A DNA stretch of 16,261 bases from a virus (Duplodnaviria; Heunggongvirae; Uroviricota; Caudoviricetes). Location: IMG/VR virus record IMGVR_UViG_2547132421_000009; one strand, 5' to 3'. The notes below the pieces were generated by a model. That model did no database searches, was not told where the DNA came from, and worked only from the letters and a program-made list of their open reading frames with translations. The first letter of the stretch is position 1. Each line of letters opens with the position of its first letter. This document shows, piece by piece, positions 1 through 13,001 of the stretch. The position numbers were made by a program, and so were the translations under genes.

Positions 1-869
1 CTAAGCGAGGTTCTGGTTTCCAAATTGTTCCGGACTGAGGCCGCCACACCAACTGTGCCGCCGCCACCGATTGTAATCACATTCGATATAATTAAACACC
101 GTTGCCCGCATTATTTCCCGGCTGATAAAGTGTTCTCCATGGATACATTCCACTTTCAGCGAATGAAAGAAGCTTTCCACGCAGGCATTATCGTAGCAGC
201 AACCTTTTGCGCTCATACTTCCACGCAGATTATGCCGCTTCAGTTGCGCCTGATAATCTGCTGAACAGTACTGGCCTCCACGGTCCGTGTGAACGATAAC
301 GTTCCGGGGCCTCTTACGCCGCCACAGCGCCATCTGCAGGGCATCGCAGGCCAGTTGCGCCGTCATGCGTGGCGACATTGACCAGCCAATAACGGCACGT
401 GACCACAGGTCAATGACCACTGCCAGATACAGCCAGCCTTCATCTGTACGTAAGTACGTGATGTCTCCTGCCCACTTCTGGTTCGGGCCACTGGCGTAAA
501 AATCCTGCTCCAACAGATTTTCTGACACAGGCAGGCCGTGTGCGCGGTAGCTGACCGGGCTGAACTTCCGGGAGGCCTTTGCCCTCAGTCCCTGACGGCG
601 CAGGCTTGCCGCCACGGTTTTTACGTAAAGGGGTACCCTGAGCACGCAGTTCATCCGTCAGGCGTGGGGCACCGTAACGCTGTTTTGACCGGGTAAAGCC
701 GCGAGGACAACGCTGTCGCAGTGTTGGCGGAACTGCTGACGCGTGCTTATCCTTGTCCGCCGCTGACACCACGTATACCAGCCGCTGCGGGCCACCCGGA
801 GCACGCGGCACATTGCTTTGATGCTGAACTCAGCCTGATGTTTTTCAATTCAATAAAGACATACTTCAT
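1..869 (-). pseudogene. insF: IS3 orfB DDE transposase (InsF-like) split across three reading frames
   Basis: Consecutive InsF-like segments lie in different frames: MKYVFIE then a stop; [28 protein letters not shown]...VVLAA; [21 protein letters not shown] (frame of ORF 440-811); [12 protein letters not shown]...DDE core...SPEQF (ORF 1-654). This implies at least three small indels relative to an intact 288-aa orfB. Confidence 0.7.
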
Positions 870-1165
870 TTCAGGCGCTTCGCGAAGTATGTCGCGGCCT
901 TTTGGAGGATAGCCAGCTCTTCATCCCGTTCTGCCAGCTGGCGTTTGAGACGTGCAATCTCGGTAGACATCTCCAGTTCACGTTCAGAAGACGTCTGCTG
1001 ATTTTGCTGTTTACTGCGCCAGTTGTAGAGTTGTGATTCATACAGGCTGAGTTCACGGGCTGCGGCAGTAACACCGATGCGTTCAGCAAGCTTCAGGGCT
1101 TCACTGCGAAATTCAGGCGAATGCTGTTTACGGGGTTTTTTACTGGTTGATACTGTTTTTGTCAT
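866..1165 (-). CDS. insE: IS3 orfA transposase subunit (InsE-like, 99 aa from the ATG at 1165)
   Basis: Translation MTKTVSTSKKPRKQHSPEFRSEALKLAERIGVTAAARELSLYESQLYNWRSKQQ...AKRLK; GAGGTG Shine-Dalgarno 5 nt upstream of the ATG. The ORF track extends it to 1174 from a GTG. Confidence 0.85.
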   Translation of the reverse strand: MTKTVSTSKKPRKQHSPEFRSEALKLAERIGVTAAARELSLYESQLYNWRSKQQNQQTSSERELEMSTEIARLKRQLAERDEELAILQKAATYFAKRLK

Positions 1166-1342
1166 GTGAGTCACCTCTGACTGAGAGTTTACTCACTTAG
1201 CCGCGTGTCCACTATTGCTGGGTAAGATCATTACCAAAAGACTGCCGAATAATCTTCTTCCATGGCAAACCGCGACCGCGTGAAGTGTCAGAGGATTGGC
1301 TTCCTCTCATTAGCGCGTTTTTTGAGCGAGAATCAGAATAAT

Positions 1343-2977: not shown

Positions 2978-3484
2978 TTGAGTATTTTCAATAAACACGC
3001 ACACCAGGAACGTCCGTACATTGTCATAGTAGATATTGATGGAACGATATCGGAGGCAACGGAAGACAGGCTGCATTTACTTCCACCGCCTGGCAACGGT
3101 GCATTAACAGAGCACTGGAACGAGTTTAACCTTGCCTGTGACACTGATGCTTCCATCACTCCAGTTATTGATATGGTGCGCCAGTTGTCCAGCATTTACA
3201 CGCTCTGGTTTGTAACCGGGCGCTGTGAGATAGCCAGGGATAAAACACGAGCCTGGTTGCGTAAGCACGTAACAAATGGGGCAGAGCCTTTGCTATCTAT
3301 GCGTCCCGCCACCGATGACAGAAATGACGGTCCAGCAAAGATTGATCTCCTTAAGAAAATTGGTCTAAGCAAAATTGCGTTCGCGCTGGAAGATAAGATT
3401 GAAGTGGCGCGTGTTTTCAGGAGGCACGGCGTGCTTACGTTAATGGTCAGGGAGTATGAAAACGCGCTTCTCCATCAACAATAA
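2978..3484 (+). CDS. HAD-superfamily phosphatase-like protein (168 aa), TTG start
   Basis: GGAGG Shine-Dalgarno 4 nt before TTG. HAD-like motifs: motif I VDIDGT, motif II LWFVTGR, a conserved Lys (WLRKH) and an acidic motif ATDDRNDG. Confidence 0.55.
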   Translation: MSIFNKHAHQERPYIVIVDIDGTISEATEDRLHLLPPPGNGALTEHWNEFNLACDTDASITPVIDMVRQLSSIYTLWFVTGRCEIARDKTRAWLRKHVTNGAEPLLSMRPATDDRNDGPAKIDLLKKIGLSKIAFALEDKIEVARVFRRHGVLTLMVREYENALLHQQ

Positions 3485-3513
3485 TTGCTCTAATAAATAA
3501 TGATTTTTAAAAC
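3484..3513 (+). promoter_or_regulatory. C1 operator-like 17-mer (ATTGCTCTAATAAATAA, 3484-3500) with the same TTGCTC -17 bp- TAAAAC architecture as the 1343 module
   Basis: 15/17 match to the C1 operator consensus; near-identical ~30-bp module to 1343-1372; sits in front of the 3583-6387 gene block. Confidence 0.6.
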
Positions 3514-3531
3514 AGAGAAAGTGAAAATAAA

Positions 3532-3553
3532 AACATGCCGCAAGGCGCGGCAT
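3532..3553 (-). terminator. Hairpin CATGCCGC-aagg-CGCGGCATG, followed by a U-run only on the minus strand
   Basis: Perfect 8-bp inverted repeat. The minus strand reads hairpin then TGTTTTTATTTTCAC; the plus strand has no U-tract, so it could alternatively be a 5'-leader structure of the downstream operon. Confidence 0.35.
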
Positions 3554-3582
3554 GTATCCAATCAATCACAGGAGCTGAAAAT

Positions 3583-3669
3583 ATGAACACGGCATTCAAA
3601 ATCATTATGGCCGCGATCTATTTCTGGCTGTTCTCTATCACTTTTGGCGGCATCGTCGCACATGGGTAA
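3583..3669 (+). CDS. small hydrophobic peptide, 28 aa (MNTAFKIIMAAIYFWLFSITFGGIVAHG)
   Basis: AGGAG Shine-Dalgarno 8 nt upstream of the ATG; single predicted transmembrane-like segment; its stop overlaps the Shine-Dalgarno of the next gene. Below the ORF-track length cutoff. Confidence 0.35.
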   Translation: MNTAFKIIMAAIYFWLFSITFGGIVAHG

Positions 3670-3678
3670 GGGGGATGC

Positions 3679-4257
3679 ATGAAAGGCGAAGTGAAAGAGC
3701 GCGGCATGATTTTTAACGATGAGATGGTCCGGGCAATTCTTGGCGGGAATAAAACACAGACTCGCAGGATTGTTGAAGAAAAATTCTATGGACGGGCAGT
3801 GGCCGCAGAGTTGCTTGCCAAGCATTGTCCATATGGTCAACCGGGCGATCGTATTTGGGTTCGCGAAACCTACCGGGTACATGGCAAAGCGACGGACGTC
3901 GCAACGCTGGTTTATCGCGCAAGCGTGCGTAACTCCTGGACAGAACAAACGCACCGGGTTCCGGTCGAGGTTTGTAATAAACCAGTATCAGAAAAGTGGA
4001 CGCCATCAATTCACATGCCGCGCTGGGCATCGCGCATTCTTTTGGAAATTACCGACGTGCGTGTGGAACGGCTGCATGACATGAGCGAGGAAGATGCTAA
4101 AGCAGAAGGCGCAACTCCGGCGACGTACAAGATTACGCCATCTGAAGCTGTTTATCGCGTTGGTTTTGGTGATATCTGGCGCAGTATTTACGGGCAGGAT
4201 AACTGGCTATCTAACCCGTTGGTATGGGTAATCGAGTTTAAGCGCATTCAGGAATAA
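3679..4257 (+). CDS. ASCH-domain protein (192 aa)
   Basis: AGGGGG Shine-Dalgarno. Motifs resemble ASCH/PUA-like proteins such as E. coli YqfB: EMVRAILGGNKTQTRR near the N-terminus, GDRIWVRE, and C-terminal WVIEFKRI. Confidence 0.6.
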   Translation: MKGEVKERGMIFNDEMVRAILGGNKTQTRRIVEEKFYGRAVAAELLAKHCPYGQPGDRIWVRETYRVHGKATDVATLVYRASVRNSWTEQTHRVPVEVCNKPVSEKWTPSIHMPRWASRILLEITDVRVERLHDMSEEDAKAEGATPATYKITPSEAVYRVGFGDIWRSIYGQDNWLSNPLVWVIEFKRIQE

Positions 4258-4260
4258 ACC

Positions 4261-4634
4261 GTGAGTATGCATCAAGTCGTCAGCTTTTCAGGTGGACGAA
4301 CATCGGCTTATCTCGTTCATCTGATGGAAGCACAGCGAAAAGCTGGCGTTAGCGTCCATTTCATTTTTATGGATAGCAGAACTGGAAAGCAACGAAGTCC
4401 GTGAAGTCGGAAATCAGTTTCTTGTTGTTCGCCATCCTGGGAAAACTCCTGTCATCAAGCACTGCACTGGTGACCTGGAAGAGTTTCTGCGGAAGTTAAT
4501 CGAACAAGACCCGTTAGTAACTATCGACATCATTACGCATCGCTATTACGGGATTGGCGGTCAATGGGTTCAGGATGCAGTTGAGTATCTGCATATGATG
4601 TCTGACGCTGGCATTCGCATCAAAGGAGAGTGAT
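4261..4634 (+). pseudogene. PP-loop (SGGxxS) PAPS-reductase-like gene remnant, split between two frames
   Basis: Frame 1 from GTG 4261 / ATG 4267: MHQVVSFSGGRTSAYLVHLMEAQRKAGVSVHFIFMDSRTGKQRSP, stop at 4402-4404. Frame 2 continues without a start from about 4325 to the stop at 4631-4633: ...EVREVGNQFLVVRHPGKTPVIKHCTGDLEEFLRKLIEQDPLVTIDIITHRYYGIGGQWVQDAVEYLHMMSDAGIRIKGE. The combined length (~125 aa) is too short for an intact PP-loop enzyme. Confidence 0.4.
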
Positions 4635-5150
4635 ATGGCGTTAACACACCGCGAACTCTGTCAGATTGCGTACAAGTTCCTTAAGCGCAACGGGTTCAAG
4701 GTTTGTTTTCATGACCGCTTTATAGCTGTAACCAGTACCGGAGAACAGCCAGATGCTATGGGATTCAGAAATTCAGCATCATGCCTGATAGAGGCGAAGT
4801 GTTCTCGTGCTGACTTGTTGGCAGATAGAAAAAAGCGTTTTCGTAAAAATCCGTCTCTTGGAATGGGCGACTGGCGATTCTTTATTAGTGAGCCGGGAAT
4901 TATTTCAATTGAGGATTTACCACCTGGCTGGGGATTACTTCACGTTGTTAACGGAAGAGTACGGAAAGTACATGGGTGGCCCAAGGGTAATTGCTGTTGG
5001 GGTAATCCTGACGATAAGCCATTTACTGGAAATAAGCAGGTTGAATGCGATTACATGTTATCTGCATTAAGGCGCATGGAGTTGAGAGGGCACCTTAATG
5101 AAATATATGACGGTGTAATTGTTAATAAGAAAGAAGGAAACGCGGCATGA
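4635..5150 (+). CDS. putative PD-(D/E)xK-type nuclease-fold protein (171 aa)
   Basis: AAGGAG Shine-Dalgarno 7 nt upstream. Candidate catalytic motif ...GEQPD(39)AMGFRNSASCLIE(53)AK(55)... with spacing typical of restriction-endonuclease-like folds. Confidence 0.45.
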   Translation: MALTHRELCQIAYKFLKRNGFKVCFHDRFIAVTSTGEQPDAMGFRNSASCLIEAKCSRADLLADRKKRFRKNPSLGMGDWRFFISEPGIISIEDLPPGWGLLHVVNGRVRKVHGWPKGNCCWGNPDDKPFTGNKQVECDYMLSALRRMELRGHLNEIYDGVIVNKKEGNAA

Positions 5151-6028
5151 CCACTATTACCAAAGAGCGACTACTGACAATCAAGCAGTGGCGCGAAACA
5201 TACGGACCTGGTAGCAACGTTGTACTGCCAGCAGAAGAAGCGGAAGAACTGGCACGAATTGCTCTGGCATCACTGGAAGCAAAACCAATAGGTGCATTCC
5301 ACATTGCAGAACAGCAAGTTGACGGCACAAGTGACTACCTCAAGGATGGAGAATGGCCTATTGATAATGGAATTATTGAGGTCTACGCCGCTCCCCCCGT
5401 TCCAGTAGTACCGGAAGAAAAACCAATGCCTAACGCTCTAAGCATGCTTGAAAGAGAGATCACACAACTGATTGGTGATGCGCAGGAAGCCACTGTTACT
5501 GGCTATGAGTTAATCGCTGAAGCTTGGCGTTTGATGGATGGACAAGACCCTAAAACCAGCGATTGGCATAGCAAGGCTTCGAAGTATTTAAATTCCAATA
5601 TTGTAGAAAAAGTTGATGATGACCGTATTGATGCAATTAAGGCTGTTTTGCGTAGACTGGCTGGCAACTATCCGGATATTCCGGATAGTTCGGTGCCTAC
5701 GCCAGGAAAGGGCGTCACCGGTGAACGTATCCGCATTAAGCCGCATGTTTATCGCGAACTGGTTAACCGTCTCCACGATACAGCGATCAAGTGTGCTGGC
5801 ACCCAGCAATTACGAGAAAGAATTAGCCGTGTTTTGGGCGACGTTATTACGCCATATCATCATAAACAAGCCGAGAAAAGCGGTCTGGAAAGGTGTCATC
5901 TTGAGGCAGCATTAAACATTAAGCCGGGGCATACGCTTGGCATTATTGATGCACTGTTGGTTCATAAGATGGCCAGGGCTTTATTGTCGTTGGTGGACGC
6001 TGGTGATACAAGCGAGGGTGAAGTATGA
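5147..6028 (+). CDS. hypothetical protein (293 aa)
   Basis: Long ORF whose ATG overlaps the stop of the upstream gene (ATGA) and whose stop overlaps the next start; no family recognised. Confidence 0.6.
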   Translation: MTTITKERLLTIKQWRETYGPGSNVVLPAEEAEELARIALASLEAKPIGAFHIAEQQVDGTSDYLKDGEWPIDNGIIEVYAAPPVPVVPEEKPMPNALSMLEREITQLIGDAQEATVTGYELIAEAWRLMDGQDPKTSDWHSKASKYLNSNIVEKVDDDRIDAIKAVLRRLAGNYPDIPDSSVPTPGKGVTGERIRIKPHVYRELVNRLHDTAIKCAGTQQLRERISRVLGDVITPYHHKQAEKSGLERCHLEAALNIKPGHTLGIIDALLVHKMARALLSLVDAGDTSEGEV

Positions 6029-6387
6029 GAGTTGCAGATCACATCAAACACCTTGAAAGAATTATCGAAAACGGTGAACTCTTAAGAGATCAGATGAGAC
6101 GCACGGCAGAAGCCAGGGAGGCGATAATCCGCAGTCAGGCTGGTAAATTAAAGCAATTGTCAGAGATTAACACGCTATACAAGAACAGACGTAACCGGGC
6201 GGTGATGCGGCTTCAGAAAGCACGTAATGAAATTAAATTGGTGGAGGCAAAACTGAAAAAACAGATCCAGCGTTACGATCAGCAAGATGCTTTTTATGCC
6301 GCCATCAAGGCGGCTGCTAATGAAATAGGCATCTGGAAGTTGCTGGTGGAGAAAGCAAAGACGAAGTTAAATGCCAACGAAAGCTGA
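6025..6387 (+). CDS. hypothetical coiled-coil protein (120 aa)
   Basis: ATGA overlap with the upstream gene; GAGGGTG Shine-Dalgarno; K/R/E-rich heptad-like sequence. Confidence 0.55.
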   Translation: MRVADHIKHLERIIENGELLRDQMRRTAEAREAIIRSQAGKLKQLSEINTLYKNRRNRAVMRLQKARNEIKLVEAKLKKQIQRYDQQDAFYAAIKAAANEIGIWKLLVEKAKTKLNANES

Positions 6388-7445: not shown

Positions 7446-7802
7446 TTATGACCGTAAATTATTAGCGGATTTTAAGCCATATTCACCGTTGTAGAAATTA
7501 CTCATGTTCCATTCATTAGGAAGTTCTTTTCTGTCCAATGTATAGTGGCGCACGATATAACGATCTTCATCTTCTTCGATGGACAGGCGGACATAGCCAA
7601 TGTGAATCACCGATACGGGCGGTGTTCGTATTGCATAGATGTCGCGGAGATATACCGGCAGCTCGACAAATGCATCAGGTGCATCTGTGATGCTCGTTTT
7701 TTCACAGTATTCATATAACGCATCGTTGATATCGTTAAGAGATTCATGATCGTATATTTCCAGGTAATTACCGCGATCGCGATGGTACTCGATTTTAGCC
7801 AT
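7446..7802 (-). CDS. hypothetical protein (118 aa)
   Basis: Minus-strand ORF whose ATG (7802) directly abuts the stop of the upstream minus gene (7803-7805); no family recognised. Confidence 0.6.
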   Translation of the reverse strand: MAKIEYHRDRGNYLEIYDHESLNDINDALYEYCEKTSITDAPDAFVELPVYLRDIYAIRTPPVSVIHIGYVRLSIEEDEDRYIVRHYTLDRKELPNEWNMSNFYNGEYGLKSANNLRS

Positions 7803-8387
7803 TCAAAATCCCCTGTTATCGTTTTGCATTTCTCTAATCCGGTTCAGAACTACTTCGTGCTGGACTTGGATAGCGGCTTTTTCGTTTTCAAGCCGGGCAA
7901 TAGACATCTCTAATTCTTTGCTGTACCAGGCGAGCTGGGCCAGGTTCATCCGGTTGTGGTCGAGAGTTGGAGACACTTCGACGCGATCCCTTTCTTCCTG
8001 CTTTAATGAGAAGAGATTCATCTCATCCCTTGAGGAAAATTCAGCAACAATTTCTTGTTGATGATCCGGTCGCTGCGGCATCCTCGCCAGTATAAATGGC
8101 GGTTCTTTTGAAAACATGAATGTCGGTTCAGACCGTGTTTTTACCCAGCTTGCCTGCTGTCTTTCGGCAAGTTCACAGGCTTCATCATAGTTATCTGCCA
8201 AACAAAGCACGGATGGACGGTCCCACGCCCCACCATTCAGACAATAAACTACAATTTTCCCGTCAGGTTGTGTAACCCCATATGGATGGTCCCACTAGGC
8301 GTCCAGCTGAGCTTTAGAGCGTTTCTCGTTAGGAGTGCAGTCAAAATTTTTGGGCAATACAGGATCGAGAGGAATGCGATTAGGCAT
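7803..8387 (-). CDS. hypothetical protein with an in-frame TAG at 8297..8295 (194 codons if read through; 135 aa if started at GTG 8210 as in the ORF track)
   Basis: ATG at 8387..8385 with AAGGA Shine-Dalgarno 8 nt upstream. The 30 codons MPNRIPLDPVLPKNFDCTPNEKRSKAQLDA are followed by TAG in the same frame as WDHPYGVTQPDGKIVVYCLNGGAWDRPSVLCLADNYDE... and the track ORF. Lies divergent from humD, about 140 bp from the LexA box. Confidence 0.5.
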
Positions 8388-10971: not shown

Positions 10972-12117
10972 ATGTTACTTAACTGGCAGGGACGCCACTT
11001 CATGGAAATAAATCACTCACGAATAACATCGTACGAGATTGCGGATTACATGATCCGCACTAAATCTCTTCTATCAGCGAAAGAACTCGCAGCAATTCTT
11101 GAAAAGGAATACCCGCATCTGGATGTCGATAAGCGCGATGTTTATCTGCGCTTAAAGGCTATCGCTGTGACCGATATCCGTGAATACCTGCTCGAACAGG
11201 GTCATCTGAATTACGCAACCGTCGCAGCCGAAGCACGCAAGGAGGCACACAGAATGAAAGCAACTAACGTTAAATCAGAAAAAATTCATGCAACTTCAGT
11301 TCAGGAATCAGAGCTGGTGGTTGTTCAGAATCAGTCTGATGAAATTCCCGTTCTGGAATGGCTGGGAGTGCGTGTAGTAACGACCGAAACTCTTGCTAAG
11401 GGGTATGGAACCGATGAAGCTAATATTCGTAAAAATTTGTCTCGCAACTCCGATCGCTTTGAAGAAGGTAAGCATTACTATCTCTTAACTGGTTCAAAAT
11501 TAAAGGAATTTAAAAGGCTGGTGACTACTAGTCACCTGGTTAGCAAATATACAAGCCAGGTAATTCTTTGGGCCGAACGCGGAGCGGCACGCATGTCTAA
11601 GATCGTAAACACAGATGAAGCATGGGCATTCTTTGAAAAACTGGAAGACAGCTACTTCCGGCAAAAAGAACAGCAACCGGTCGCAATCCCCCAAACACTA
11701 CCTGAAGCCTTGCGCCTGGCTGCCGAGCTGGCTGAACAAAAGCAGCTACTGGAACAGAAGGCCCACCAGCTAAATCAACAACTGGTGGCCGCAGCCCCCA
11801 AGGTCGATTTTGCCGACCGTGTATCAGTGGCTAAGGGGATCCTGATTGGTAATTTTGCAAAGGTTGTTGGGCTGAAGCAAAACGCGCTGTTTGCCTGGTT
11901 ACGGGAGAACGGCATTCTGATAGCGTCCGGCGGGCGTAAAAATGTGCCGTTCCAGCAGTACATAAACGCCGGATATTTCACAGTGAAAGAAGTGGTGCTG
12001 GATGATGAAGATGGCTACCAGATACGGCTGACGCCCCAATTAACGGGGAAAGGACAACAGTGGTTGACGCGTAAACTGCTCGATGCTGGCTTGTTAAAAC
12101 CGGTGGCGGCTGAATAA
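10972..12117 (+). CDS. antirepressor-like protein with ORF6N and KilA-C (ANT) domains (381 aa; start could instead be the ATG at 11002)
   Basis: Central region VRVVTTETLAKGYGTDEANIRKNLSRNSDRFEEGKHYYLLTG...LWAERGAARMSKIVNTDEAWAFFEKLEDSYF fits ORF6N; C-terminal region ...NFAKVVGLKQNALFAWLRENGILIASGGRKNVPFQQYINAGYFTVKEV fits KilA-C. Confidence 0.7.
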   Translation: MLLNWQGRHFMEINHSRITSYEIADYMIRTKSLLSAKELAAILEKEYPHLDVDKRDVYLRLKAIAVTDIREYLLEQGHLNYATVAAEARKEAHRMKATNVKSEKIHATSVQESELVVVQNQSDEIPVLEWLGVRVVTTETLAKGYGTDEANIRKNLSRNSDRFEEGKHYYLLTGSKLKEFKRLVTTSHLVSKYTSQVILWAERGAARMSKIVNTDEAWAFFEKLEDSYFRQKEQQPVAIPQTLPEALRLAAELAEQKQLLEQKAHQLNQQLVAAAPKVDFADRVSVAKGILIGNFAKVVGLKQNALFAWLRENGILIASGGRKNVPFQQYINAGYFTVKEVVLDDEDGYQIRLTPQLTGKGQQWLTRKLLDAGLLKPVAAE

Positions 12118-12124
12118 TGGAAGA

Positions 12125-12146
12125 ATGCCCGGTTGATGCCGGGCAT
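12125..12146. terminator. bidirectional terminator hairpin ATGCCCGG-ttgatg-CCGGGCAT between the convergent antirepressor-like gene and c1
   Basis: 8-bp perfect stem, 8 nt after the 12117 stop and 3 nt after the c1 stop (12150-12152); U-rich sequence follows on both strands. Confidence 0.55.
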
Positions 12147-12149
12147 AAT

Positions 12150-13001
12150 TTATTGCGCGCTTTCGGGGTTGTCGTTTACTGGCTGCCCCTTCTTAGTTTT
12201 ACGACTGCGCGTAACTGATGCGGCTGATTTGACCTTTTTCTCTTCGCGAGTGATGGCAATTTGTTTTTTTACATTTTCAATATCTGCCAGGCGATATATT
12301 TTTGCCTGCGGCCAGCGGTCGCAGATGATCGGTTCTATGGAGTCATAAAGGCTAAATTTTGCTTTCTCGAATTCACCGTTGATGATGATTCCATCACGGA
12401 GGGTTTCATCGCAGATAAACACGCCACACAGTGGCACATGGTAACTAACTGATTTACCATCATTGTAGTTAGGGCTACTGGAAATGTAGTGGACGCGCAG
12501 CATTGTTTCGCTAAAGCCGTGTACGCGCATACGGAATTTTTCATCCTCCGGGTACTGCTTCATTAGCTCTTTTGTTGCTTCCAGGTTCTCTATGTATTTC
12601 GCACTGTGCTCATTGAACCCCGCGCTTTTTTGGATGCGAATATCCTTATCAATCAGATGAATAATGCGGCCAGCGGTCATGTTGACGCTGTTCACAGCTT
12701 CTGTCTGATAAGTTGTAACCTTACGTACACCGCGAAGGATGTTAGGCACTGGATATAAAATAGTCTTTGGGATATTGAGGTCTGGGTACTGTTCCAGTTC
12801 CCGCGCCATTAAAGTCCATTTATCAATTTCAGCCTGAATGCTGTCCGTTTCTTTGAACGGCAGAACGACAACCGGGCGAACAGGACGACCGTCGCTGGCG
12901 GCATCAACGTGTTGGGCGCGTGCAACAGCTTTTTTTAGAAAGAGATCCCTGAAGCTGACGAACTCCTGGTACAGTTGTTCGCCGTAGACATAATTTATCA
13001 T
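12150..13001 (-). CDS. c1: C1 repressor of lysogeny (283 aa)
   Basis: 283-aa ORF (MINYVYGEQLYQEFVSFRDLFLKKAVARAQ...) matching P1 C1 in length and sequence as recalled; GGAGG Shine-Dalgarno; adjacent to coi and to the C1 operators near loxP. Confidence 0.9.
   Translation of the reverse strand: MINYVYGEQLYQEFVSFRDLFLKKAVARAQHVDAASDGRPVRPVVVLPFKETDSIQAEIDKWTLMARELEQYPDLNIPKTILYPVPNILRGVRKVTTYQTEAVNSVNMTAGRIIHLIDKDIRIQKSAGFNEHSAKYIENLEATKELMKQYPEDEKFRMRVHGFSETMLRVHYISSSPNYNDGKSVSYHVPLCGVFICDETLRDGIIINGEFEKAKFSLYDSIEPIICDRWPQAKIYRLADIENVKKQIAITREEKKVKSAASVTRSRKTKKGQPVNDNPESAQ

What the first reader, a model, noticed from the sequence alone, without database searches (positions are those of the whole stretch)
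3484..6387. Operator-fronted accessory operon: 28-aa membrane peptide, ASCH protein, PP-loop remnant, PD-(D/E)xK-like nuclease and two coupled unknowns
A C1-operator/promoter module (3484-3513) precedes a tightly packed plus-strand block at 3583-6387. Start and stop codons overlap at 5147 and 6025, and each gene has its own Shine-Dalgarno. The combination of an ASCH (modified-nucleotide/RNA-binding fold) protein, a predicted restriction-endonuclease-fold nuclease, a degraded PP-loop enzyme and two unknown proteins (293 aa; 120-aa coiled coil) does not correspond to any P1 function I can name. Nucleic-acid-acting enzymes under direct repressor control in a phage accessory region are what one expects of an anti-defence, defence or superinfection-exclusion module expressed on prophage induction. 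This is my best candidate in the window for an undescribed system.
Basis: partly seen in the sequence, partly recalled or inferred. Interest (0 to 1): 0.65.

Follow-up and report, generated by a model that had tools for sequence, protein, structure and literature searches.

The report
P1 pmgT operon, shuffled accessory cargo
This is the known repressor-controlled pmgT-pmgU-pmgV accessory operon of a P1-like phage-plasmid, filled here with partly broken gene cassettes borrowed from lambda-like phages, and nothing shows that it works as one defence or anti-defence system.

Summary
The C1 operator sits at 3484-3500, all six ORFs are real, and both ATGA overlaps are present. Structure prediction supports the ASCH and PD-(D/E)xK fold calls.

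The interpretation does not hold. The block is the Op88/OpmgT operon of P1 (pmgT-pmgU-pmgV; upf86.8 to upf90.8 in P7). It lies in a published hypervariable region of P1-like phage-plasmids, and P1's own copies were scored non-essential in a CRISPRi screen.

The cargo comes from the early accessory regions of lambda-like phages:
- **Deletion:** a 1.5-kb loss left a 36-aa PAPS-reductase stub and a start-less Ea22 C-terminal fragment.
- **171-aa protein:** a nuclease-fold protein found mostly in chromosomal prophages. It is broken by an IS or a frameshift in two sibling plasmids.
- **293-aa protein:** an in-frame hybrid of a DUF551-family N-terminus and the PmgU domain.
- **Last gene:** PmgV.

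This combination covers at least 80% of the block in only 1 of 5,426 complete E. coli genomes. The ASCH gene has no constant neighbour in 80 phage contigs, and PADLOC finds no defence family. The host element also lacks pacA and pacB.

One point is worth a bench test. The ASCH protein keeps the catalytic Lys/Thr/Arg/Glu residues of the ac4C amidohydrolase YqfB.

The parts
3484..3500 (+). C1 repressor operator, equivalent to P1 OpmgT (former Op88). It directly follows the pap stop codon.
   Evidence: 2 mismatches to the consensus pattern; 7 sites in the window against 0.10 expected. Same position as the annotated P1 and P7 operators.
3485..3528 (+). Predicted sigma-70 promoters P2pmgT and P1pmgT, overlapped by the operator. 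In this window the -35 of P1pmgT reads ATGATT instead of TTGATT.
   Evidence: Positions transferred from the P1 annotation through the alignment. The window-specific scan did not call them.
3533..3555 (.). 10-bp GC-rich hairpin at about the predicted 5' end of the transcript. On the minus strand it reads as an intrinsic terminator.
   Evidence: Conserved in P1, P7 and three plasmids. Its role was not tested.
3583..3669 (+). 28-aa hydrophobic ORF (MNTAFKIIMAAIYFWLFSITFGGIVAHG) with its own ribosome-binding site. It is the only part of the operon kept when the rest is replaced by hsdMSR.
   Evidence: Intact in all 5 compared loci, with a single synonymous change. Mean hydropathy of the core is 2.1. 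It is retained in NZ_CP061751.1 next to hsdR, and its body (3590-3673) is 98.8% identical in IncF plasmids downstream of hsdR. Too little divergence to prove that it is coding.
3679..4257 (+). 192-aa ASCH-fold protein, the PmgT / Upf86.8 family. It keeps the YqfB-type catalytic residues K25, T28, R30 and E143.
4261..4404 (+). Pseudogene: the first ~36 codons of a 290-aa PAPS-reductase-family (PP-loop) gene, followed by an out-of-frame tail. The deletion junction is at about 4373-4375.
   Evidence: Window 3400-4375 matches L004 1501-2476 and window 4373-5281 matches L004 3984-4892, so 1,507 bp are missing. Translations. PGAP marks it incomplete in the 100%-identical plasmid. phrog_424 hit at E = 1e-8.
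4376..4633 (+). Pseudogene: 85 C-terminal codons of an ead/Ea22-like gene (the Ea22 C-terminal domain). It has no start codon, N-terminus or coiled coil.
   Evidence: translation matches the C-terminus of the L004 Ea22-like protein. PGAP marks it 'missing N-terminus'. [quoted passage not shown]
4635..5150 (+). 171-aa PD-(D/E)xK-fold protein, identical to P7 Upf89.0. It is a cassette gene of lambda-like prophages, where it sits between the Ea22-like and DUF551 genes.
5147..6028 (+). 293-aa in-frame hybrid ORF. Residues 1 to ~178 are the N-terminal module of a lambdoid DUF551-family protein without its DUF551 domain. Residues 183-293 are the PmgU domain. The joint is at about 5659-5680.
   Evidence: 96% identical over 183 aa to P0485, whose DUF551 domain lies at residues 181-244. 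93% identical to P1 PmgU and 99% to the C-terminus of P7 Upf89.5. DNA homology to P1 starts at 5659. The exact protein is seen on 158 contigs.
6025..6387 (+). 120-aa PmgV (Upf90.8 in P7), translationally coupled to the hybrid ORF. Function unknown.
   Evidence: 97% identical to P1 PmgV and 99% to P7 Upf90.8. phrog_4403 covers the full length. The PmgU+PmgV segment lies almost only on plasmids (364 places against 6 chromosomal), and PmgV is absent from about half of those records.

Best explanation
The block is the C1-controlled early operon that follows pap in P1-like phage-plasmids: the Op88/OpmgT operon, pmgT-pmgU-pmgV in P1. It serves as a landing pad for accessory genes.

**How it most likely works (inferred).**
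- While C1 is bound at 3484-3500 the operon is silent.
- When C1 is inactivated, the overlapping sigma-70 promoters produce one polycistronic mRNA.
- That mRNA encodes several independent accessory proteins. They do not depend on one another.

**The products.**
1. A 28-aa hydrophobic peptide.
2. An ASCH-fold hydrolase with the YqfB-type Lys/Thr/Arg/Glu site. I predict that it removes an N4-acyl group from cytosine nucleosides or from tRNA ac4C.
3. Two dead fragments, one of a PAPS reductase and one of Ea22, left by a 1.5-kb deletion.
4. A small PD-(D/E)xK nuclease-fold protein. It resembles small stand-alone nucleases more than a restriction enzyme.
5. A hybrid protein of the Ea22/DUF551 modular type that carries the PmgU domain.
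6. PmgV.

**Origin and role.** The cargo was imported piecemeal from the early accessory regions of lambda-like phages. It has since been reshaped by deletion and domain-boundary recombination. By analogy with the lambda exo-xis region, these genes probably tune host physiology or the lysis-lysogeny decision early after derepression. They are dispensable for phage growth.

**Shown:** locus identity, mosaic structure, pseudogenes, folds, and lack of co-inheritance.
**Inferred:** co-transcription, the enzymatic activities, and the physiological role.
For: **Locus identity.** Same position, operator and flanking genes as the P1 and P7 operon. All intact genes match P1 or P7 pmg/upf genes.

**Known variability and dispensability.** Published as variable region 8/H. 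P1's own pmgT, pmgU and pmgV were scored non-essential by CRISPRi. JL22, which has other cargo in place of pmgT, can still lysogenise.

**Mosaic structure.**
- Breakpoints were mapped by blastn.
- PGAP independently calls the PAPS-reductase and Ea22 pieces pseudogenes.
- The hybrid nature of the 293-aa ORF is shown.
- P1's own pmgT is an ASCH gene cut before its last strand and fused out of frame into the PmgU region.

**Independent mobility.**
- The 171-aa gene is mostly chromosomal (1,050 places against 250 on plasmids).
- The PmgU/PmgV segment is almost only on plasmids (364 against 6).
- The whole block covers at least 80% in 1 of 5,426 genomes and in 2 of 1,219 matching plasmid records.
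- The ASCH family sits among RecT, Ead/Ea22, Xis, Int, Dam, O/P and NinX genes in 80 phage contigs. A PAPS reductase is adjacent in only 1 of 80.

**Lambdoid origin.** The same Ea22, 171-aa and DUF551 order occurs in phage POCJ13. The lambda exo-xis genes are described as early, non-essential and mosaic in PMC10834534.

**Folds and active sites.**
Against: - No expression or activity data exist for any of these proteins. The enzymatic predictions rest on fold and a few conserved residues.
- Tight translational coupling of the last three genes (ATGA overlaps) would also fit a functional unit. The exact 293-aa hybrid is on 158 contigs, so that arrangement is stably inherited in one lineage.
- Non-essentiality was measured in P1, whose pmgT and pmgU are themselves deletion products. 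It therefore says little about the intact genes.
- The same slot holds a genuine defence system (type IC restriction-modification) in relatives. A defence-related role for some cargo is therefore not far-fetched.
- No anti-defence library was available to search.
Confidence: 0.72

Rival explanations
1. One reading: the block is one undescribed anti-defence, defence or superinfection-exclusion system. Its nucleic-acid-acting components (ASCH sensor or enzyme, nuclease, two partner proteins) would work together after prophage induction.
For: - The operon is under direct C1 control.
- It encodes a nuclease-fold protein and a protein with a fold that binds modified bases.
- The last three genes are translationally coupled.
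- It lies in a variable hot spot that carries type IC hsdMSR in relatives.
Against: - There is no convincing PADLOC match. The best are SspD at E = 0.006 on the dead stub and PglZ at E = 0.001.
- The components have different distributions and are not co-inherited.
- The ASCH gene has no constant neighbour in 80 phage contigs.
- Two 'components' are pseudogene fragments and one is a hybrid.
- The nuclease gene is broken in two sibling plasmids without loss of the rest.
Confidence: 0.1
2. The block is decaying, functionless cargo in a defective P1-derived plasmid. The open reading frames are intact only because too little time has passed for mutations to accumulate.
For: - The element lacks pacA and pacB and carries a truncated lpa fused to an antirepressor.
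- An IS3-family element lies at 1-1228.
- The operon holds two pseudogenes.
- Sibling plasmids carry an IS insertion or a frameshift in the 171-aa gene.
- The closest record is a 61-kb plasmid, against 94.8 kb for P1.
Against: - The intact genes are identical or nearly identical to alleles kept in hundreds of full-size P1-like plasmids and prophages.
- Their families show strong conservation of putative catalytic residues.
- Operator, promoter region and ribosome-binding sites are intact.
Confidence: 0.15
3. The historic annotation: these are morphogenetic ('pmg') genes needed for virion head or tail assembly.
For: Only the P1 gene names ('putative morphogenetic function') and the P7 label 'hea operon'.
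Against: - P1's own copies were scored non-essential in the CRISPRi screen.
- Content varies greatly between viable P1-like phages.
- The folds are enzyme-like and not structural.
- The whole stretch can be replaced by hsdMSR.
Confidence: 0.03

Closest known systems
Phage P1 Op88/OpmgT operon (pmgT-pmgU-pmgV) and its P7 counterpart (upf86.8 to upf90.8)
   Same: - Same position after pap, with the same C1 operator, promoter region and leader.
- The first gene is of the PmgT family and the last is PmgV (97% identical).
- The PmgU domain is present (93%).
- Upf89.0 is identical and Upf86.8 is 84% identical.
   Different: - Different cargo between the first gene and the PmgU domain.
- Relative to P7 it lacks upf87.4, upf87.6 and an intact upf88.3 (Ead-like), and it has a shorter Upf89.5 (293 aa against 432).
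- Relative to P1 it has a complete ASCH gene plus the 171-aa gene. P1's pmgT and pmgU are themselves products of a deletion.
Early accessory (exo-xis type) cassettes of lambda, Stx and related phages
   Same: - They hold the same gene families: Ead/Ea22, the 171-aa protein and DUF551-family proteins.
- In POCJ13 the genes lie in the same order, and Stx phages match this stretch at about 96% DNA identity.
- Lambda exo-xis genes are early expressed and non-essential, and Stx ea22 genes are mosaic with swappable C-terminal domains (PMC10834534).
   Different: - Here the cargo is driven by a P1 C1-controlled promoter on a plasmid prophage, not by pL.
- Ea22 is reduced to a dead C-terminal fragment.
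- The DUF551 domain has been exchanged for the PmgU domain.
E. coli YqfB, an ASCH-domain N4-acetylcytidine amidohydrolase
   Same: - The GxKTxTxR motif and the Glu that match catalytic K21, T24, R26 and E74 are present and invariant in the family.
   Different: - Nearly twice the size (192 aa against 103), with two inserted segments.
- No significant sequence match to any PDB chain.
- Pfam ASCH score below the gathering threshold.
- Substrate unknown, phage-borne and early-expressed.
SPO1766 (PDB 3dnx) and small stand-alone PD-(D/E)xK nucleases (Hjc-like; from memory, the MmcB/DUF1052 group)
   Same: - Invariant D...ExK motif.
- Weak Hjc profile hits in 17 of 38 family members.
   Different: - No Pfam family reaches significance.
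- The profile-to-PDB sequence match to 3dnx is only E = 0.55.
- That 3dnx belongs to the MmcB family is my recollection and was not tested here.

Membership tests
P1-type Op88/OpmgT (pmgT) operon | C1 operator directly after pap, with overlapping promoters | tested here: met
   Operator at 3484-3500 aligns with the annotated OpmgT. pap lies at 2978-3484 (HAD_PNKP domain).
P1-type Op88/OpmgT (pmgT) operon | First gene of the PmgT family; terminal PmgU domain and PmgV | tested here: met
   43% identical to PmgT and 84% to Upf86.8; PmgU 93%; PmgV 97%.
ASCH domain / YqfB-type amidohydrolase | ASCH (PUA-like) fold | tested here: met
   [not shown]
ASCH domain / YqfB-type amidohydrolase | Pfam ASCH (PF04266) at the gathering score | tested here: not met
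   16.9 bits against a cut-off of 21.2. 11 of 52 homologues hit weakly, best E = 3e-4.
ASCH domain / YqfB-type amidohydrolase | Catalytic Lys, Thr, Arg and Glu (YqfB K21/T24/R26/E74) | tested here: met
   K25, T28, R30 and E143 are invariant in 52 sequences. hhalign pairs E143 with E74. MAFFT pairs GNKTQTRR with GRKTITIR. The roles of the YqfB residues are from PMC6972931. Spatial clustering in the model could not be checked.
ASCH domain / YqfB-type amidohydrolase | Hydrolysis of N4-acylcytosine or ac4C substrates | not testable with these tools
   Needs an enzyme assay.
PD-(D/E)xK nuclease superfamily | Restriction-endonuclease-like core fold | tested here: met
   [not shown]
PD-(D/E)xK nuclease superfamily | Conserved D...(D/E)xK catalytic motif | tested here: met
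   D40, E53 and K55, plus D27 and E37, are invariant in 38 homologues.
PD-(D/E)xK nuclease superfamily | Nuclease activity | not testable with these tools
   Needs biochemistry.
PAPS reductase / PP-loop ATP pyrophosphatase | Complete catalytic domain beyond the SGGxxS loop | tested here: not met
   Only about 36 of 290 residues remain. The rest was removed by a 1,507-bp deletion.
Ead/Ea22 family | N-terminal segment plus coiled coil plus C-terminal domain | tested here: not met
   Only the last 85 codons remain, with no start codon.
DUF551 family | DUF551 domain (PF04448) | tested here: not met
   The 293-aa ORF shares residues 1 to ~178 with DUF551 proteins, but the domain itself (residues 181-244 in P0485) is replaced by PmgU.
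Known anti-phage defence systems (PADLOC-DB 2.0) | Significant match of any component to a defence-system model | tested here: not met
   Only SspD at E = 0.006 on the dead stub and PglZ at E = 0.001 with 15.6 bits.
Multi-gene system (general criterion) | Components co-inherited across genomes | tested here: not met
   The whole block is found in 1 of 5,426 genomes, and its parts have separate distributions. ASCH neighbours are heterogeneous.
Type I toxin-antitoxin (considered for the 28-aa peptide) | Small hydrophobic peptide plus an antisense RNA with its own promoter | tested here: inconclusive
   The peptide is hydrophobic and a minus-strand terminator-like hairpin lies upstream. No convincing minus-strand promoter was found (best 8 of 12 matches), and there is no Rfam hit.

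The most novel reading that the evidence does not exclude
The PmgT-family ASCH protein heads this island in the P1-like elements compared here that keep the operon. Its family is very large: 43,091 clusters at 50% identity match at E <= 0.001.

It could be an active phage-encoded N4-acylcytosine or ac4C amidohydrolase, expressed at once on repressor loss. Such an enzyme might erase ac4C from host tRNA to retune translation. It might instead remove an acyl-cytosine mark or metabolite used by a host defence.

That would give a function to a very common phage 'hypothetical' protein and a first biological role to the P1 pmgT gene.

A second, weaker idea concerns the C1-controlled 28-aa membrane peptide. 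It is kept even where hsdMSR replaces the operon. There, transcription from the Op88 promoter would run antisense into hsdR and could switch restriction off at induction.
Probability: 0.15. Interest if true: 0.55.

Novelty: already known. Interest (0 to 1): 0.2.

Why it matters
As a candidate new system it does not matter much. The locus, its repressor control and its variability are already on record, and this copy is a partly degraded variant in a packaging-defective plasmid.

Three points are still useful:
1. **P1 gene models.** The reference pmgT and pmgU genes look like products of a deletion. They are an ASCH gene truncated and fused out of frame, plus a stand-alone C-terminal domain. 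The 'morphogenetic' label and the non-essentiality data should not be carried over to the intact genes.
2. **Gene flow.** The Op88 slot links lambda-like and P1-like phages. It takes up lambdoid early accessory cassettes in some elements and a type IC restriction-modification system in others.
3. **Testable predictions.** Two very common phage 'hypothetical' families now have concrete predictions: a YqfB-like amidohydrolase site and a PD-(D/E)xK site.

Tried and rejected
**ASCH plus PAPS reductase as a conserved two-gene module, with the second gene dead here.** Rejected. A PAPS reductase lies next to the ASCH gene in only 1 of 80 phage contigs.

**The 28-aa peptide as a type I toxin.** Left inconclusive.
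- No credible antisense promoter was found and there is no Rfam family.
- The ORF is no better conserved than its non-coding leader in the five loci available.

**Searches that found nothing useful.**
- Sequence searches of the PDB with the 171-aa and 192-aa proteins, and with profiles built from their families, gave nothing significant.
- Pfam and NCBIfam gave no above-threshold family for any gene of the block.
- PHROGs gave only 'unknown function' families for the intact genes.
- PADLOC gave nothing convincing.

**Resources that were unavailable.**
- The afdb50 fold library was not installed.
- The 2004 P1 genome paper was not held, so the origin of the 'pmg' names could not be checked.
- Model coordinates were not exposed, so clustering of the putative catalytic residues could not be measured.

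Full report

Yes. The ATGA overlaps at 5147-5150 and 6025-6028 are present, and a purine-rich ribosome-binding site precedes each start.

The sequence ATTGCTCTAATAAATAA at 3484-3500 differs at two positions from the C1 consensus I used as the search pattern. The window holds seven such sites where 0.10 are expected by chance. The c1 gene itself is in the window at 12150-13001.

**2. What the locus is**

The window is a P1-like phage-plasmid.

- The operator aligns base for base with the annotated P1 operator OpmgT (former Op88). It also aligns with promoters P2pmgT and P1pmgT, directly after pap.
- In P1 the operon is pmgT-pmgU-pmgV. In P7 it runs from upf86.8 to upf90.8 under 'Op(hea)'.
- Protein comparison:

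| Window protein | Match |
|---|---|
| 192 aa | 84% to P7 Upf86.8; 43% to P1 PmgT residues 1-239 |
| 171 aa | 100% to P7 Upf89.0 |
| 293 aa, C-terminus | 93% to P1 PmgU; 99% to the end of P7 Upf89.5 |
| 120 aa | 97% to P1 PmgV |

So the block does correspond to named P1 and P7 genes, although those names carry no known function.

The literature already lists pmgT to humD as one of eight hypervariable regions of P1-like phage-plasmids. It also notes that pmgT is replaced by other genes in phage JL22 without loss of lysogeny (PMC9603915). A genome-wide CRISPRi screen scored P1's pmgT, pmgU and pmgV as non-essential (PMC10695390).

**3. Mosaic anatomy**

blastn against five related loci maps the breakpoints.

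- **3400-4375** matches a Salmonella P1-like plasmid (L004) at 98.7%. This stretch runs through the ASCH gene and the first ~110 bp of an intact 290-aa PAPS-reductase-family gene.
- **4373-5281** resumes 1,507 bp further along in L004, in the last third of an ead/Ea22-like gene.

The deletion therefore removed most of the PAPS reductase, two small ORFs and the 5' two-thirds of the Ea22-like gene. Two fragments remain:

- **PP-loop stub:** it runs out of frame to a stop at 4404.
- **Ea22 fragment (4376-4633):** 85 codons with no start codon, encoding the Ea22 C-terminal domain.

NCBI's pipeline independently marks both as incomplete pseudogenes in the 100%-identical plasmid pMTY9803_untypable1. 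[quoted passage not shown]

The 171-aa gene follows.

In the 293-aa ORF, residues 1 to ~178 are 96% identical to the N-terminal part of chromosomal prophage proteins. Those proteins end in a DUF551 domain at residues 181-244. Here that domain is replaced, at the domain boundary and in frame, by the PmgU domain. DNA homology to P1 begins at 5659.

This is the same 'common N-terminus, swappable C-terminal domain' logic described for Ea22 variants.

P1's own operon is also a deletion product. Its pmgT is an ASCH gene cut before the last beta-strand and read out of frame into the PmgU region. Its pmgU is the orphaned C-terminal domain.

**4. What the intact proteins are**

*The 192-aa protein.*
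- A family alignment of 52 sequences gave a confident model (pLDDT 89.6).
- The family is very large, with 43,091 clusters at 50% identity at E <= 0.001.
- K25, T28, R29, R30 and E143 are invariant.
- They line up with YqfB K21, T24, R26 and E74. K21A, T24A and R26A variants were catalytically inactive, and E74A cut turnover 100- to 1000-fold (PMC6972931).
- A 2026 preprint reports that diverse ASCH proteins remove ac4C from tRNA.

An amidohydrolase activity is therefore a reasonable but untested prediction.

*The 171-aa protein.*
- It gave a good model (pLDDT 83.4).
- D27, E37, D40, E53 and K55 are invariant in 38 homologues, and 17 of the 38 give weak Hjc hits.

*PmgV and the PmgU domain.* These have only 'unknown function' PHROG families and were not modelled.

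**5. Is it one system?**

The evidence says no.

- **Whole block:** it covers at least 80% in 1 of 5,426 complete E. coli genomes and in 2 of 1,219 matching plasmids.
- **Parts:** they have different homes.
  - The 171-aa gene has 1,050 chromosomal places against 250 on plasmids. It sits in the same Ea22, 171-aa and DUF551 order in phage POCJ13.
  - The PmgU/PmgV segment has 364 plasmid places against 6 chromosomal. About half of those records lack PmgV.
- **ASCH neighbours:** in 80 diverse phage contigs they are typical lambdoid early genes (RecT, DksA/TraR zinc fingers, Ead/Ea22, Dam and MT-A70 methylases, Xis, Int, O/P, NinX). There is no constant partner, and a PAPS reductase is adjacent only once.
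- **Nuclease gene:** it is interrupted by ISVsa5 in the closest plasmid and frameshifted in another.
- **Defence models:** PADLOC finds nothing convincing.

**6. Context**

The element itself is degenerate.

- P1 homology stops at 11169 and resumes at c1. The 3' end of lpa, together with pacA and pacB, is therefore missing.
- A 381-aa chimera of the Lpa N-terminus and an antirepressor occupies the gap.
- An IS3-family element lies at 1-1228.
- The closest record is a 61-kb plasmid.

The slot is nevertheless a true exchange hot spot. In some P1-like plasmids everything from the ASCH gene to humD is replaced by a type IC hsdMSR system on the other strand. The small ORF and phd bound that replacement. 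The body of the small ORF also turns up, 98.8% identical, just downstream of hsdR in many IncF plasmids.

**7. Verdict**

The interpretation as an undescribed system is not supported.

The best reading is a known, C1-repressed, dispensable accessory operon. Its cargo is a reshuffled and partly dead set of lambdoid early accessory cassettes.

What remains open is the function of the individual proteins. The most concrete lead is the YqfB-like active site of the PmgT-family ASCH protein.

Noticed in passing
window 10972-12150: A 381-aa chimeric ORF joins the Lpa N-terminus (PF25716) to ORF6N and KilAC/ANT antirepressor domains. P1 homology breaks at 11169 and resumes at c1 (12151). The 3' end of lpa, together with pacA and pacB, is therefore absent, and the element should be unable to package DNA.
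   Followed up: partly
window 1-1228: An IS3-family insertion sequence lies on the minus strand (rve-domain transposase ORF at 1-654, HTH_Tnp_1 ORF at 866-1174). P1 homology starts only at 1229.
   Followed up: partly
window 3590-3673; L009 6001-6084; L010 9001-9190: The body of the 28-aa ORF is 98.8% identical in many IncF conjugative plasmids, immediately downstream of a type IC hsdR. In P1-like plasmid NZ_CP061751.1 the stretch from the ASCH gene to humD is replaced by hsdMSR on the opposite strand, bounded by this small ORF and phd. There, transcription from the Op88 promoter would run antisense into hsdR.
   Followed up: partly
window 4793-4801; L003/L006; L007 5030-5208: The 171-aa nuclease-fold gene is interrupted by ISVsa5 (9-bp target duplication) in the otherwise 100%-identical plasmid pMTY9803_untypable1. 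It is frameshifted in pEC21Z048-103K. This may mean the gene is dispensable or costly.
   Followed up: partly
L002 3280-4349 (P1 pmgT and pmgU): The reference P1 pmgT is an ASCH gene truncated before its last beta-strand and fused out of frame to the 3' part of the PmgU-bearing gene. pmgU is the leftover C-terminal domain. The reference gene models therefore describe a deletion product.
   Followed up: yes
window 3533-3555: A GC-rich hairpin sits at the predicted 5' end of the operon transcript. On the minus strand it scores as an intrinsic terminator, and its T-run is the complement of the P1pmgT -10 region. It could stabilise the mRNA 5' end or stop antisense transcripts.
   Followed up: no
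window 3499-3504: The -35 hexamer of P1pmgT reads ATGATT here and in pMTY9803_untypable1, against TTGATT in P1, P7 and two other plasmids. The sibling plasmid also has a C-to-A change inside the operator (ATTGCTATAAT).
   Followed up: no
window 7446-8210, minus strand: Two minus-strand ORFs (118 and 135 aa) have no Pfam match. By position they appear to correspond to P7 upf93.6 and upf94.2, and they replace the P1 lxr region. Their function is unknown.
   Followed up: no
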